A program made the position numbers and the translations under genes. This document shows, one piece after another, positions 16,344-46,590 of a DNA stretch of 64,000 nucleotides. Origin of the DNA: Octopus sinensis (lineage: Eukaryota); assembly GCF_006345805.1 (NCBI RefSeq), contig NC_042998.1, positions 81,716,001 through 81,780,000 of the forward strand, written 5' to 3'. Numbering within the stretch: position 1 is the first letter of the stretch; each line of letters opens with the position of its first letter. The notes beneath the pieces were generated by a model, which did not search any database, was not told the DNA's origin, and saw only the letters and a list, made by a program, of their open reading frames with translations.

Positions 16344-16524
16344 AGGAGTGGCTGTGTGTGTGGTATGTAGCTTGCTTACCAACCACATGGTTCCGGGTTC
16401 AATCCCACTGCGTGGCACCTTGGACTAGTGTCTTCTACTGTAGCTTCAGGCCGACCATAGACTTGTGAGTGGATTTGGTAGTCGGAAACTGAAAGAAGTC
16501 CGTCGTATATATGTATATGTATAT

Positions 16525-39732: not shown

Positions 39733-39777
39733 TAATAATAATAATAATGATAAGAAGAAGAACAACAATCATAATAA

Positions 39778-40640
39778 TGGACAATTTTACAGGGATGTTG
39801 AAGAAAAGACAGAGAAAAAATGGCTATAGATGACTAAAAGTAATTTAAAACCGGAAACGGAGGCTCTAATTTGTACTGCCCAAAAGCAAGCATCAAAAAC
39901 CAATCAAATACACAATAGACAACATTTCAGAACAAATCAAATAGAGAATAGATAATACATCAGAAAGTGATGATTGTAGAGTTGGTCGACAAAATGATGA
40001 AACCGTATGGAATATTACAGTCAATGTACAACACTAGTGCAGAAAGAATATAAGTCACGTCATGACAATATAGCAATGGTTTCCCATTGAACACTTTGAA
40101 ACAAGTATAGACTTGACAGAGCAAAAAAAAAAAAAAAAAAGGGGGACGAACATAAACCCGAAAGCATCATCGAAAATGATAATGCAAAGATCCTATGGAA
40201 TATTATGATTCAGCGCGACCAAGAGATAGAGAATAGGAAACCGGATATAGTGTTAATTGAGAAAGAAAGCAAATGATGCTGGATCATAGATATAGCATGC
40301 GCAGCTGACAAAGTATGCGATAAGGAAGACAGAAAAGTCGATATTTGGGCGGTTAAGCATTTGTGGTCAAGGAAAAAGGTGTTAGTAGTACCAATCATTG
40401 TCGGAGCCCTGGGAACGGTGAATAAAAATCTTGAGAAATAAATGAAACAAATAGGAGCTGCAATAAGGTTGGAGCACTTGCAGAAAACAGCACTGCTTGG
40501 AACTGCTCGAATACTCCGTATGGTGCTCGAAAAATAAGGAGTATTACATTAGTTCACTGGTAGTGAACAGTTGGCAACGTAGCACATCTCCAGCGCTAGA
40601 AGTTGTGAAAAGACAATAAATATTAACAATAATAATCATA
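39778..40640 (+). mobile_element. R4/Dong-like LINE 3' fragment (family C) in (AAT)n
   Basis: Decayed LKPETEAL.C.AQ, RHDN, KPDIVL, IIDIA, PIIVGALG, QKTALLGTARILR. Confidence 0.82.
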
Positions 40641-40754
40641 ATAATTCCTCGCTCTTTCTTCCTCTCTCTCTCTCTTTCTGCCTCTTCCTTTCTGGAAAGC
40701 ACAATCTTTAGTTGCTACTAGAACCATGCTGGACTTTTGTTTGTCTACAGCCAA

Positions 40755-40792
40755 GGCGCAGGAGTGGTTGTGTGGTAAGTAGCTTGCTAACC
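40755..40792 (+). mobile_element. SINE A 5' head fragment, left of the Tx1 insertion
   Basis: ggcgcaggagtggttgtgtggtaagtagcttgctaacc matches 16344-16380. Confidence 0.9.
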
Positions 40793-41104
40793 TCACTGAC
40801 AGAAGAGTGACTTTGCTTACCGTACTACGGTTTGGACGCGTTTTCTTCCCGGTAAGAGTTTTGCTGTGTTGTTAATTGTTGAATTCCTACTACTGAAGAT
40901 TTGCCTTTAAACGTTGCTGAACTGTCTTGTTCTCCGGTTTTACCGGGAAGTAATTGAATAATTTCTTACCGTTGACTATTTTTGTGCCCCTCCCCCGAAT
41001 GGGGGTGGGAATTGGAATTTTTTAACTGCTTTTTTGAACTACTTTGGAAGAAAAACTTTCTATAGGTTTCCCAGTTTTGTGGGAAACCAATACTCGTAAT
41101 TTTT

Positions 41105-42184
41105 GTGTTGTCTAATTTCAACAGAATAATGTCTGTTGAAATTATTCACGAAAGTAGTGCTCTTGAGGAGAGCAATGTTAAAAAAATTTCTGAGGTAGCC
41201 GCAGTGGCTACCGAGAAAATTGACATCGATGTCAACCACCTCGTCGAGCTATTTAAAAGAATGCAAGAGGAGGGTGGTGATGTTAAAATATCACCCTCCG
41301 CCAGTATCGTGGAGACCGAGAAGCGGACCGTAGTGTTTAAAACTTTCTGTCCACAAAGCAGAAGGTTCAAACACTTTGAAAAAAGCACCATCGAGAAATG
41401 CCTGTCCCCGATTTGGAAGGACATCGTGTACGTCGCCAGGGGACGGGCATATGGCACTGTGGATGTCCGCTTCTCGGGGGAAGAAATGGCCCGCGGGCAT
41501 TCTGTGAACCCCCAAAAAACCAAGGAGGTGGTACTTTTCCCAAGCTATAGGGGACGCAGGACGTCCCGGGTCAGGATTGTAGAAGCCCCGCCGGAAGTAG
41601 ATCCGGTAGAGGTAGTGGCCGCCCTGTTATATAAAAGGGCGGACAAAATAAAAATACTAGAAGTAACATGCTCTACCCCTCGATTTTGGCTCGGGCGTAA
41701 CATTAATATATTAATTCAAGGAACAGCGGAGGACCTGCAGCTCCTTCCTGAGAGGGTGCTCGTGGGCGAGAACGTAGCCCTCAGGGTACAGGTCGAAGGC
41801 CGAAAACCCACCTGTTACGCCTGCGGCAAAAAGGGCCACATTCGTGTAGACTGTCCAGACAAGCAAAAGAAACCGCAGACACCAGGCCCCTCAGATAATA
41901 AAAAAGTCCCTACCCTTGCAAACACACCTACCCCTACAAAAACAAAAAATCCCACTCCTGCTGTTACGGTGCCAACCCCAAAACAGACTGAAGAAAAAAC
42001 CCAGCCCTCGCACTCACAAACCCCTACACTATTAAAACCTCCCACCCCCCTAAAAACTGCGGCGCCTACCGAACAAACTATTGCTACCCCAGACGATACC
42101 ATGGAGGTATCAGAGGGGGGATTTACACCAGTTTGTAAAAGAATTCGTGCAGCATCCCCGTCCACATCCCCCTACAAAAAATAA
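41105..42184 (+). CDS. LINE ORF1 protein with CCHC zinc knuckle and Pro/Thr-rich tail (first ATG 41129; probably extends to 42532)
   Basis: CYACGKKGHIRVDC; the same frame reopens after stops near 42182-42196 and runs to 42532. Confidence 0.88.
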   Translation: MLSNFNRIMSVEIIHESSALEESNVKKISEVAAVATEKIDIDVNHLVELFKRMQEEGGDVKISPSASIVETEKRTVVFKTFCPQSRRFKHFEKSTIEKCLSPIWKDIVYVARGRAYGTVDVRFSGEEMARGHSVNPQKTKEVVLFPSYRGRRTSRVRIVEAPPEVDPVEVVAALLYKRADKIKILEVTCSTPRFWLGRNINILIQGTAEDLQLLPERVLVGENVALRVQVEGRKPTCYACGKKGHIRVDCPDKQKKPQTPGPSDNKKVPTLANTPTPTKTKNPTPAVTVPTPKQTEEKTQPSHSQTPTLLKPPTPLKTAAPTEQTIATPDDTMEVSEGGFTPVCKRIRAASPSTSPYKK

Positions 42185-42549
42185 TAAAAACAATGACACA
42201 CCACAGACACGGAAAAAAAATCCCGCTCAACTGGCCCAGAAAAAGAAGACAAAAAAGAAAATGAACTCATATTAATTGAATTCGACACACAAGACAAATA
42301 CATAAACGATATTGTGGTTCAGCATCAGTCAGCAAGACTGTACAACAAATACAGAGATCGAAATAGACTCGCGTGGATTGCGGAAACAACGTTAAAACAA
42401 TTAAAAGACAGACACCCAAACGCCATCCGGCATATCGCGAACTTGCCGGACTATCTGAAGAAAGAGGAGAAAGAAGGGGCCCACAAACGTGTAGTGAGGT
42501 CGGCCCCCACCTCTCCAACGAAATGTAAGTAGAACTTTTACTTTTTGTA

Positions 42550-45500
42550 ATGGCTTCGCTTAACCTTGTTTGTTTAAATGTGCGTGGTCTGAGTTCGAAG
42601 TGGAAGCAGGCTTGTTTCCTCGACGACCTCAGATCACATGATATACATGTGATGGTTGCTACAGAGACCAAGCTGGACAGCCTACAAACCTTCTCGCCTC
42701 TCCTGAATGGCTACGAGAAAATCATGTCTCCTGGCCAGACCGGAGGGCGAGGGGGCGTAGTGGTACTGATCCGTAAAGACTTGGCTCTACAGACAAGTAC
42801 AGTCTATGTAGACCCAGAAGGTGGGCTGGTCGTCCTTGATGTGACATATAGCAGTAAGGCCTTCAGGTTGATCGGACTCTATGCACCTTGTGCTAGAGGT
42901 TTCCAAACTGATTTTATCGGCGCCTAGAGGGCTTTCTCGTGACCTTCGAAGACTTTAGTGATATTAGGGGACTTTAATGCTATCGTTGACGTACACATCG
43001 ATAGCGTTGGCTCGATCTATAGGAAAGTGAACTCACGTCTCGTGGATCTGCTTAAGCGGTTTCAGCTAGCAGATCGTTACAGACTTGACCATCCGAACGT
43101 CCCAGAGTGGACCTGGATGAGTGGCGACGGAAGGTTCAAGTCTTATCTAGACAGGATAGTGATAAGAACTAGAGATAAGTCTAGTTTTAGTTGTCCACAG
43201 CTCGTCCAGGTGCCCTATACTGACCATAGAATGGTCACGTGTAGACTGGACATAGATAGCACACTTAAGATAGGAACCGGCTACTGGAAGCTGAACAAGT
43301 CTATTTTGACACGCGAGGCATACCGTAGCCGGATTAAGGTGTTAGTGCAGAGGGCGTTAACCGGAGCCGTGGTTAATAACCGGTGGTGGTTCAGCCTCAA
43401 AAGAGCCATTCGATTCGAGTCCATTAGATTTAGTAAACAACTAAGACTAGATAGGGCTAGAATAGAAGGGCAACTAGTTAAGAACTTAGAGGAGGCGTTG
43501 AGGTTGGGCTCTGCATCTCACATTTTAGCGGCGAGAACGGCATTAGACCGTCACCTCAAAACCAAACATGAGGGATGTAGAGTCCGGGCTAAAGTACGAG
43601 CATTGGGCCGTGAGGGAATTCATGTTGCCGGATGGGCCCGCACGATAGAAACACAGCGTGGAAACGATGCCACAATTGGGTCTCTTGTTGATGAAAACGG
43701 ATGCACGATCAAGAAGCGGGACGAGATGTGTGAGGCACTTCACAAGCACTTCGCCGAGTTGTTCGGGAGGTGCGGGACGCTGGATCATGGTGAGGCCCTT
43801 AGGGACTTCCTGTCTGGTGGCCCGCGCCTCTCGACACGAGAGGCTGAGTGCTGTGAAGGGCCAATCACAGCCGAGGAAGTAATCGAGGTGTTGGGCAAGT
43901 GCCCCGGGGAGACGTCGCCGGGTCTCGATGGTCTGCCCTATGAATTTTATAGAAGTATGCCAGACTTGTTCGGGCACCTGCTGGCTAGCGTCTACGCCAA
44001 CTGGCAGCAGAATGGGAGAATTCCCAAGTCTGCGAGCCGGGGGGCGGTGACGTTGATCAGGAAGGACCCGAACAAAGGGGACGAGATAGGGAACTTCAGG
44101 CCCATAACTCTGTTAAACACAGAGTTAAAGATTCTGGCCAAGGTGCTAGCAAAAAGGTTGGCGCGGGTCCTGGACAAACTTGTCGGGGAAGCGCAAACGT
44201 GCGCTATCCCCGGCAGAACGATCCACGACAATCTCCACCTTATACGCTACTCCTTAGAGAGAGTGGGGAAGCTTTCTGGCGCAGGGGGAGCACTGGTACA
44301 TTTAGACCAGTCCAAAGCATTTGATAGGGTCGACCATCGGTACCTGGCGGCGGTCCTCGGAGAGGCTGGCCTAGGCCCGACCTTTCGAGGTTGGATCGCT
44401 GCTTTGTATAGCGACATCGAGTCTGTAGTCAAGGTGAACGGTTCCTTTTCGAAGCCGTTCAGGATCGAGCGTTCAGTTCGTCAAGGGTGTCCCCTGTCCT
44501 CGCTCCTATACGTATTGGCTCTTGAGCCTTTGCTGCGGAAGTTGGAGGCACTAGGGGGCGCGCCGCATGATCTATGGTGTGGAAGAGGAGCTACGGCATA
44601 TGCGGATGACACCTCCATCATCGTGGCAGACGAAGGCCAGCTTCCAGTGGTGGAAGAGGCCATCAAAAGCTACGAGGCGGTGGCAGGAGCAAAGGTTAAC
44701 AAGGACAAGTCGGTCGGTTTGCAACTCGGCACCTGGAGGGGCAAGCCGATGCCGTCCAATAACGTCGTAGGGCGTTGGACGGAAGGTCATGTTAAGCTGC
44801 TCGGAGTCTGGTTCGGGCCAGACCTCCAGATTGAGAAAAATTGGAGTGAGGTGGCCAACAATGTGACCGCTCTAACCCAGACCTGGTCTGGGCGGGCGTT
44901 ATCCCTGCTAGGGAAGGCGGAGGTGGTGCAGATGTTTATAGCATCAGTAATCACCTACCGTCTGACCGTGGTGCCTTGCCCCGATTTGTGGCTGAACAAG
45001 TTGGAGAGAATCCTTTTCCGATTTTTGTGGAAAGGAGGAAAGCCACTTGTAAAGCGCTCTGTCTGCTGCCAGAAACCGCTAAAGGGTGGGCTAGGGATGC
45101 CTTGGCTGAGGATGCGAAAACTCGCGTTAAGGTTGAGGCACCTCTGGCTTTACCTGGATGGAGAGCAGGTGTGGTCGCCGCACGTCCGGTTCTACCTTCC
45201 CCAGTTAACATCCCTAACGGACATCGGTGCATGGATCAAGCGGAGACCTAAACTGAATGAATGGCATTTGGAGTGCCGTCAGGCGCTCCAGCTACTATCT
45301 CGGGTGGGCAACGCCGGCAACAGGAGTTCCACCACGGATTTCTATAGCGGGTTAGTGGAGATTAAGTCCGAAGACGCCTTGGGGGAGACCCTGGGCTACG
45401 ATGAAAATCAGTTGGTCAACCTGTTCCGGAGGACGTTCGGGCCGGGGTATCTGGATAATTACCAGAAATCCCTAGCCTGGCAGTGTTTCCGTGCGGCTTT

Positions 45501-45951
45501 ACCTGTTCGCGACAAGCTGTCAAGGCACGGTAGTGCCGTCTCGCCGACATGCCCGCGATGTGAGCAGGATAGGGAGACCGTCTTGCACGCATTCGTGGAG
45601 TGTCCGGAGTTATCGGGACTGATAGCTTTTGTTGAACAACTGTTGTCAGTGATGGGAAGAGTACAGCTATCAGCTGAGTCTATCATCGAGATTGTGCCGC
45701 CCCCTTTCCTTAACAGGGAAAGAAAGGCTTGTTTTTTCTGTGTAGTAGCCATACTGAAAGAAACAGTATGGAAGACGCGTACGAAAGGTATAGTGACAGG
45801 CACCTTTGTCTCCGGCCAGGGGTTGATTAACTATTTTAGTTACCACCTCAGTAGCAAAATCAGGCTGGAGAAGAGGTGTCTGTCACGAGATATGTTTGTG
45901 AAAAGATGGAAGCCTGTGGCATACAAGATGGGTATGTTTGGCACCAGGTAA
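42550..45951 (+). CDS. LINE ORF2: APE endonuclease, reverse transcriptase and C-terminal Cys/His motif (one in-frame stop at 42925-42927 between two apparent compensating indels)
   Basis: CLNVRGL, ATETK, LGDFN, LDRI, TDH; FRPITLLN, LDQSKAFD, VRQGCPLS, AYADD; CPRC...ETVLHAFVEC. ORFs 42550 and 42958 are in the same frame. Confidence 0.95.
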
Positions 45952-46179
45952 GTGTGACCGGATCAGAAAGTAAAGGTTCTACCCGGATGGCTGGGTGTCC
46001 GTCCTTCGACATGATCATTAATATTTTTAAACATTGCCTTCGTAAAATTCATTGTTTATAATCTTATCCGTAATTTCATTCGAAAATCGTAACTGTGTTA
46101 AGCTACTTCACCCTTTATATTTGTCTGTCCTTGTTTGTCCGCTCTTTGTAAATGCCTAAATGGCAAATAATATGAAATA

Positions 46180-46322
46180 AAGTAGCTTGCTAACCAACCA
46201 CATGGTTCCGAGTTCAGTCCCACTGCATGGCATCTTGGGCAAGTGTCTTCTGCTATAGCCCCGGGCCGACCAATGCCTTGTGAGTGGATTTGCTAGACGG
46301 AAACTAAAAGAAGCCTGTCGTA

Positions 46323-46376
<54 letters not shown>

Positions 46377-46590
46377 ATTATGTGTTTGTGTGTCTGTGCT
46401 TGTCCCCCTAGTATTGCTTGACAACCGATGCTGGTGTGTCCCCGTCACTTAGCGGTTCGACAAAAGAGACCGATAGAATAAGTACTGGGCTTACAAAGAG
46501 TAAGTCCTGGGATCGATTTGCTCGACTAAAAGGCGGTGCTCCAGCATGGCCGCAGTCAAATGACTGAAACAAGTAAAAGAGTAAAGAGAA
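46180..46590 (+). mobile_element. SINE A remainder, right of the Tx1 insertion
   Basis: Continues aaccacatggttccgagttcagtcccactgc..., colinear with 16381-16835. Confidence 0.92.

What the first reader, a model, noticed from the sequence alone, without database searches (positions are those of the whole stretch)
40755..46590. Near-intact Tx1-like LINE inserted into the tRNA-derived head of a SINE: possible SINE-targeting retrotransposon
Seen: a full-length ORF1 + APE-RT element splits a family-A SINE between its A-box and B-box regions, with a perfect 16-bp TSD (aagtagcttgctaacc). The equivalent empty site is visible at 16367-16390. Known: many Tx1-clade elements are sequence-specific for tRNA, snRNA or rRNA genes, microsatellites or other transposons. 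Inference: this family may use a very abundant SINE as a safe-harbour target, possibly with the SINE Pol III promoter upstream. One copy alone cannot show specificity.
Basis: partly seen in the sequence, partly recalled or inferred. Interest (0 to 1): 0.8.

Follow-up and report, generated by a model that had tools for sequence, protein, structure and literature searches.

The report
LINE guild homing to one SINE base
A family of LINE jumping genes sits at one exact base inside the head of a very common short repeat (a SINE) in 89 of 92 copies examined, shares that landing site with related families at over a thousand places in the genome, and likely carries a copy of the landing sequence at the start of its own RNA.

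Summary
Confirmed and larger than reported. The window holds an L1/Tx1-type LINE (40793-46179) between two copies of a 16-base target in a tRNA-like SINE head. Of 92 copies, 85 are followed by the SINE body at that base, 4 by the target plus another element, 3 are off-site; chance is about 5e-5 per insertion. Insertions are independent: LINE ends differ by 0.8%, flanking SINEs by 10%, and 5'-truncated copies hit the same base. The junction occurs 1,113 times; 29 of 30 sampled are related elements, some with ORF1 only, sharing a 3' stem-loop. A sister clade uses (CT)n. Correction: the 'perfect TSD' is partly element-borne: its 5' copy keeps the element's letter in 22 of 25 targets that differ, as for R2 RNAs with a target leader. 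AATAAA forms only across the 3' junction. A SINE Pol III promoter driving the LINE is unlikely. Targeting other transposons is known for Tx1; I found no SINE target in the papers searched, but this scan noted SINE-targeting LINEs in other genomes.

The parts
40755..40776 (+). 5' part of the tRNA-like SINE head, A-box-like motif at 40765-40775
   Evidence: sequence; weak alignment to genome tRNAs; present upstream of 59 of 66 copies that keep their 5' end
40777..40792 (+). upstream 16-mer; at least its 3' half (GCTAACC) is inferred to come from the element RNA
40793..41128 (+). 5' UTR, lacks 53 bases against other copies; intron-like signals GT 40852 and AG 41123-41124, untested
41129..42532 (+). 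ORF1 (CCHC knuckle, N-part resembling ZCCHC3-type RNA-binding domains), frame slip at about 42168
42550..45951 (+). ORF2: APE endonuclease, RT (YADD), zf-RVT; out of frame between 42911 and 42943
46153..46165 (+). 3' stem-loop TGCC-n5-GGCA shared with related autonomous and ORF1-only families
   Evidence: CGCC/GGCG and TGTC/GACA variants
46176..46181 (+). AATAAA formed across the 3' junction (AATA from the element, AA from the target); no poly(A) tail
46180..46195 (+). downstream 16-mer, the true target copy
46196..46590 (+). rest of the SINE: B-box-like motif at about 46211-46221, (TA)n, body and GTAAAAGA-type tail
16365..16380 (+). empty target site in another SINE copy

Best explanation
This is a recently active L1/Tx1-type LINE whose copies sit at one base (GGT|AAGTAG) of an abundant SINE head through separate insertions, likely because its APE endonuclease recognises that sequence, with a target-like leader on its RNA that likely anneals to the cut site to close the 5' junction. 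Shown: the site, orientation, independence of insertions, sharing of the site by related autonomous and ORF1-only families, and the element-type letters in the upstream 16-mer. Inferred: the bottom strand is nicked at GGT|AAG and the top strand up to 16 bases further on; reverse transcription starts at the element's last bases (GAAATA); transcripts would use the AATAAA completed by the target's first two A's and so carry a short target trailer; the RNA would begin inside the upstream 16-mer, so that the cDNA end pairs with the 16-base overhang; ORF1-only elements would borrow ORF2 through the shared 3' stem-loop.
For: Census of 92 copies (89 exact 3'-motif matches; 2 more; the window): 83 with SINE body by script, 2 more with an internally deleted SINE by eye, 4 with target then another sequence, 3 off-site. 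Target letters 1-6 are kept in 89-91 of 92. Position 4 is T in 89 of 92 targets but 28 of 43 unselected SINE heads (p 2e-6). Young copies: 0.84% pairwise difference in the last 230 bases, 10.3% in the flanking SINE (n=37). Eight strongly 5'-truncated copies have SINE head and body on both sides, some in other SINE subfamilies (L127, L143). A flank-blind RT search gave 11 further members of the clade: 7 of 7 with a locatable 3' end have the target. 1,113 junctions against 1 in the control pattern; 29 of 30 sampled carry the shared tail. One copy sits in a non-SINE look-alike with a 16-base duplication (L045), and 6 sit directly behind another element's 3' end, so the sequence matters more than the SINE context. 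Leader: upstream letter 13 is A in 22 of 25 copies whose downstream copy has T; genome-wide 70 A to 9 T at 5' junctions against 43 A to 38 T downstream (p 7e-7). AATAAA is inside the last 60 bases in 1 of 30 sampled tails but ends 26 of 29 sister-clade copies.
Against: No biochemical or raw-read evidence; the RNA start and end were not seen. Three of 92 copies are off-site, two with little likeness to the target. The census is anchored on an exact 24-base motif, so it favours the younger subfamily. Element and SINE distances correlate weakly (Spearman 0.13), probably through age. L142 and L146 may be one insertion on two contigs. The extra-T junction variants are not cleanly inherited on the tree, so the leader's length (7 to 16 or more bases) is open. 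No ORF longer than 250 aa pattern proves an intact master: the one copy seen with both frames open (L048, among 35 listed) has compensating 1- and 8-base deletions in ORF2.
Confidence: 0.85

Rival explanations
1. The SINE halves are parts of one composite element (SINE head + LINE + SINE body) that copies as a unit, or spread by duplication of one ancestral insertion.
For: Nearly all copies have both SINE halves; the upstream 16-mer is uniform (2 mismatches in 531 letters at positions 1-9); the head at -14..-1 is also more uniform (1.7%) than in unselected SINEs (10.8%).
Against: Flanking SINE bodies differ about 12 times more than the LINE ends and come from both SINE subfamilies; truncated copies of different lengths join the same site; flanks beyond the SINE are unique except two pairs; families 65-98% alike in ORF2 use the same base.
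Confidence: 0.02
2. Targeting is real, but it is done mainly by RNA-DNA pairing: read-through target sequence on the RNA selects among nicks made by a loosely specific endonuclease.
For: The 3' junction is exact with no poly(A); AATAAA is completed by the target, which predicts a target trailer on the RNA; sister clades with an internal AATAAA use other sites.
Against: Known Tx1-type targeting is ascribed mainly to the endonuclease (PMC4494074, passage). L045 matches the target in only 11 of 16 letters yet has the same register and a 16-base duplication.
Confidence: 0.2
3. The element is tethered to SINE heads by Pol III factors (as Ty3 or TRE elements are to tRNA genes; recalled) or is transcribed from the SINE promoter.
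For: The cut is at the 3' edge of the A box; 2 of 66 full-length copies have doubled SINE heads upstream (L038, L065).
Against: Insertion occurs behind other elements and in a non-SINE look-alike; letter preference at position 4; the target is absent from 27 distinct tRNA sequences sampled (best 5 mismatches in 15); B box displaced; early T4 runs; doubled heads are mostly a SINE feature (29 of 30).
Confidence: 0.06
4. The uniform upstream 16-mer comes from gene conversion between copies after insertion, not from an RNA leader.
For: Conversion can homogenise repeats; no RNA end was observed.
Against: The uniformity is one-sided (upstream only), truncated copies keep true target letters on both sides (L140, L143, L127, L045), and an extra T appears in 14 of 17 young copies on T-type targets against 6 of 25 on A-type targets (p 4e-4, counted by eye, test), which fits events at insertion.
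Confidence: 0.07

Closest known systems
Tx1-clade LINEs that target other transposons: Tx1L in Tx1D (Xenopus), Tx1-Mar in Mariner-N4_AMi, Tx1-8_Crp/Tx1-4_AMi in LTR elements, Tx1-9_AMi in Harbinger (PMC4494074, passages)
   Same: APE-RT LINE inserting into a dispersed repeat; 16-base duplication and tandem insertions around a TSD, as described for SINEU-3; non-autonomous partners share the target.
   Different: The target is the head of a tRNA-like SINE; partners are ORF1-encoding, not snRNA-headed SINEs; 97% on target at single-base precision.
Keno (U2 snRNA), Kibi ((TC)n), Koshi ((TTC)n) (PMC4494074, passages)
   Same: The best-scoring metagenome relative ends in U2 sequence (L315); the sister clade in this genome is followed by (CT)n in 13 of 14 copies.
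   Different: Only 28% identity to the U2-linked elements, which end in AATAAA and an A run; the (CT)n sister is not shown to be related to fish Kibi.
R2 elements with 28S sequence on the RNA 5' end (PMC3774820, abstract)
   Same: Target sequence on the RNA is proposed to anneal to the target and give uniform 5' junctions; here full-length junctions are uniform and element-type, truncated ones use chance microhomology.
   Different: R2 is RLE-type and gets its leader from an HDV-like ribozyme; no ribozyme was found here (Rfam none; folds no better than shuffles).
HAL1 (half-L1), ORF1-only L1 derivatives (PMC5753468, passage)
   Same: About 2.1-kb elements with ORF1 only (396 aa, 26% to this ORF1) and the LINE's 3' tail.
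   Different: Described from mammals and L1; here site-specific and in a mollusc-type genome.
Dada DNA transposons in tRNA genes (PMC8869645, abstract and passages)
   Same: Targets cluster at the A box and anticodon region of tRNA sequences.
   Different: DNA transposons in real tRNA genes; the word SINE does not occur in that paper's text.

Membership tests
Non-LTR retrotransposon, L1 group (L1/Tx1) | ORF1 plus ORF2 with N-terminal APE, RT and C-terminal zinc-binding domain | tested here: met
   Pfam; best PDB match human L1 ORF2p, E 3e-65
Non-LTR retrotransposon, L1 group (L1/Tx1) | 5'-truncated copies, fixed 3' end, target duplication | tested here: met
   duplications up to 16 bases
Tx1 clade | RT phylogeny groups with named Tx1 references (Tx1L, Keno, Kibi) apart from L1 | tested here: inconclusive
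   No named reference or L1 outgroup was available. The lineage groups loosely with U2-flanked (Keno-like) and fish elements, deep nodes weak (quick trees only). BLAST 360 bits to a Keno-like element against phmmer 224 bits to human L1 (different programs).
Tx1 clade | ORF1 with CCHC knuckle and RNA-binding domains rather than the L1 coiled-coil type (recalled criterion) | tested here: met
   zf-CCHC; feature look-alikes at 0.89-0.93 include ZCCHC3-type RBD clusters (a lead only)
Tx1 clade | Target specificity: more than 20% of flanks in one sequence type (criterion in PMC4494074) | tested here: met
   89 of 92
Keno | Insertion in U2 snRNA genes | tested here: not met
   no U2 in the window; flanks are SINE
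R2-type ribozyme leader | HDV-like ribozyme at the 5' end | tested here: inconclusive
   no Rfam match; no HDV topology seen by eye; no dedicated motif search
HAL1-like | ORF1 only, no ORF2, LINE 3' tail, own target duplication | tested here: met
   L134 and L046 neighbours: ORF1 hits, no ORF2 hit, SINE head upstream, target downstream; 9 of 30 sampled junctions have ORF1 and no ORF2 within 1.5 kb
tRNA-derived SINE (SINE2), named octopus families OK/OR1/OR2 | Sequence identity to the published SINE consensus | not testable with these tools
   No SINE library held; OR2 is only named in PMC4758252. A- and B-box-like motifs align weakly to tRNA-Lys/Ala.

The most novel reading that the evidence does not exclude
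A Tx1-type lineage has become an obligate parasite of one SINE: it takes both RNA ends from its landing site (a target-mimic 5' leader, and a poly(A) signal completed only by the target's first two bases), so that only correctly targeted copies can breed. This lock let a guild of autonomous and ORF1-only families radiate on a single base present in about 250,000 copies, after a target switch away from sister clades that use (CT)n or varied sites.
Probability: 0.4. Interest if true: 0.75.

Novelty: new variant of a known kind. Interest (0 to 1): 0.6.

Why it matters
It is a genome-wide, well-counted case of a LINE using a SINE promoter region as its site, with close sister clades (62-65% ORF2 identity) that use other sites. 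That gives a natural set for asking how APE endonucleases change target. The one-sided uniformity of the upstream 16-mer is direct genomic evidence on how APE-type LINEs close their 5' junction, a step still poorly understood, and warns that apparent perfect TSDs can be partly RNA-borne. Each insertion also splits a SINE's A and B boxes.

Tried and rejected
Doubled SINE heads as proof that the LINE RNA starts at the SINE start: 97 matches genome-wide, 29 of 30 loci read continue as plain SINE; rejected as proof, a weak hint remains. HDV-like ribozyme at the 5' end: none by Rfam or by eye; folds not better than shuffles. Spliced retrocopy of the intron-like 5' UTR: 0 matches. Inheritance of the extra-T junction variants on the element tree: not resolved, star-like tree. 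Expression and RNA ends: no RNA holder listed on record, all runs are contigs, so no evidence either way; one contig from a run labelled as another organism (X13) spans the SINE head and 5' junction. Named Tx1 references: not retrieved. Careful ML tree did not finish. Papers PMC4795812 and PMC85248 are not held. tRNA type of the head: not resolved (46 tRNA hits, few isotypes). No earlier notes for this genome or sequence.
Full report
OBSERVATION. The window holds a 5,387-base LINE (40793-46179) between two identical 16-mers at 40777 and 46180. Upstream lie 22 bases of a SINE head, downstream the rest of that SINE; an empty copy of the site is at 16365-16380. ORF1 has a CCHC knuckle and ORF2 has APE, RT and zf-RVT. 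The window copy has a 53-base 5' UTR deletion and frame slips in both ORFs. The genome is 2.7 Gb. The closest named protein is from Argonauta hians (60%), so a cephalopod is likely; this is inference.

TARGETING. I collected all 89 exact matches to a 24-base 3' motif, two more copies from the DNA search (40 of 282 candidates were scored) and the window copy: 92 in all. The motif contains no flank. 83 are followed by the SINE body from the same base (82 exactly, 1 with one extra base); 2 more have an internally deleted SINE (L064, L141; by eye); 4 are followed by 13-16 target letters and then another sequence (L123 and L134 shown to be 5' ends of related elements, L048 and L117 probable). Three are off-site: L045 in a look-alike (11 of 16 letters, 16-base duplication), L131 and L133 with little likeness. 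There are 47,391 exact 33-base empty sites; 8 of 43 unselected SINE heads match that pattern, giving roughly 250,000 heads and about 5e-5 chance per insertion (rough). Six further SINE hits without a recognisable head were dropped from that sample of 49.

INDEPENDENCE. Among 37 young copies the last 230 bases differ by 0.84% pairwise and the flanking SINE by 10.3%; over 78 copies 2.4% and 10.8%; unselected SINEs 18%. Both SINE subfamilies are used (A at position 13 in 43, T in 38 of 83). Eight strongly truncated copies (L054, L107, L127, L128, L139, L140, L143, L147) have head and body on either side, with duplications of 0-16 bases and frequent microhomology. About ten other copies have 5' ends broken by later events or contig ends and say nothing on the 5' side. 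One pair may be the same insertion. Terminal branches of about 0.5-1% in the main burst point to recent activity.

A GUILD. The junction AAATA|AAGTAGCTTGCT occurs 1,113 times, control 1. Of the first 30 loci, 29 end in a shared tail and one is chance; 9 have ORF2 (65-98% to this family), 9 have ORF1 but no ORF2 within 1.5 kb, the rest are short or unassigned. Two complete ORF1-only neighbours are about 2.1 kb, with SINE head upstream and target downstream. The tail stem TGCC-n5-GGCA shows CGCC/GGCG and TGTC/GACA variants (no formal covariation test). A flank-blind RT search (40 of 150 hits fetched) gave three clades in a quick tree (SH-aLRT 99-100): the SINE clade (7 of 7 locatable 3' ends on target, 4 not locatable), a clade followed by (CT)n in 13 of 14 copies, and a clade with varied flanks and 16-17-base duplications where found.

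THE ENDS. In 66 copies that keep the 5' end, 59 follow a SINE head, 6 follow another element's 3' end, 1 follows (TA)n. The upstream 16-mer is far more uniform than the downstream one (positions 10-16 without 13: 2 of 354 letters against 21 of 348). Where the downstream copy has T at 13, the upstream copy has A in 22 of 25 (counted by eye); one reverse case exists (L134). Genome-wide, 5' junctions read A 70 times and T 9 times (p 7e-7). An extra T (TTTG or TTGT) marks 14 of 17 young copies on T-type targets and 6 of 25 on A-type. Truncated copies keep target letters on both sides. I read this as an RNA that begins within the 16-mer and whose cDNA anneals to the top-strand overhang, as proposed for R2 elements with 28S leaders (PMC3774820, abstract only). 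The length of the leader is open. At the 3' end there is no poly(A). The element ends in GAAATA (L143 shows the end, its target starting with G). Sister clades end in AATAAAGAAATA-type tails in 26 of 29 copies, whereas 1 of 30 SINE-clade tails has AATAAA within 60 bases and the window's 3' UTR has none; the signal appears only across the junction. That it is used is inference.

MECHANISM. Most likely target-primed reverse transcription with a sequence-specific APE domain: letters 1-6 are nearly invariant and the AAGAAG SINE variant is avoided; the site GGTAAGTAGCTTGCTTACC is a near-palindrome (seen in the sequence). Pairing of RNA and target at both ends probably adds precision. Drive by the SINE's Pol III promoter is unlikely (displaced B box, early T runs).

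COMPARISON. Tx1 elements that target other transposons, snRNA genes and microsatellites are known (PMC4494074, passages; PMC3747384 and PMC8869645, passages). HAL1 is known (PMC5753468, passages). Eight literature searches were run; five bore on SINE targets or cephalopod Tx1 (9, 14, 41, 47, 67) and their listings showed no report of a SINE-targeting LINE or of this system. The library lacks most subscription papers, Repbase Reports and Dfam, I did not read supplements (the target tables of PMC4494074 could list a SINE), and Kojima and Fujiwara 2004 was not seen. Distant metagenome relatives end in U2 sequence (L315, L323), which fits the Tx1 clade, but no tree with named references was possible. 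This scan noted SINE-targeting LINEs in other genomes on 2-4 copies each (unchecked notes).

VERDICT. Real, site-specific and multi-family. New variant of a known kind. Interest 0.6.

Noticed in passing
window 39750-40645: Broken 3' part of an RLE-type LINE (RKPDIVLIEK motif) ending near a (TAA)n-like run just upstream of the SINE; R4/Dong-like by recall.
   Followed up: partly
L253-L266 (e.g. L256): Sister family, 63-65% ORF2 identity, ends in AATAAAGAAATA and sits in (CT)n on both sides; Kibi-like target; several copies with long open ORF2.
   Followed up: partly
L267-L281; G000:C1:74185172-74201608: Third clade with varied flanks and 16-17-base duplications; some copies in tandem about 5.25 kb apart; L267 and L275 share one flank sequence.
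   Followed up: partly
window 40852-41124: 5' UTR has splice-like signals (G|GTAAG, CTAAT, pyrimidine run, CAG just before the ORF1 ATG); donor-like motifs 45-125 bases from the 5' end occur in most related SINE-clade families; no spliced genomic copy found.
   Followed up: partly
window 40774-40822: The 5' UTR holds an internal CTTTGCTTACC that can pair with the upstream GGTAAGTAG and served as the 5' join in truncated copy L145; fold not better than shuffles.
   Followed up: partly
L282-L311; G000:C18:42214561-42215199: The SINE's first 25-37 bases are often duplicated in tandem, in places as a minisatellite of 15 or more units.
   Followed up: partly
L315, L323, L328: Metagenome contigs with A-run junctions into U2 snRNA sequence (Keno-like); two of the contigs also hold 5S rRNA.
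   Followed up: partly
L035, L054, L057, L069, L121, L144: Position 7 of the target differs in the downstream copy but not the upstream one, once even in a truncated copy (L054); unexplained.
   Followed up: no
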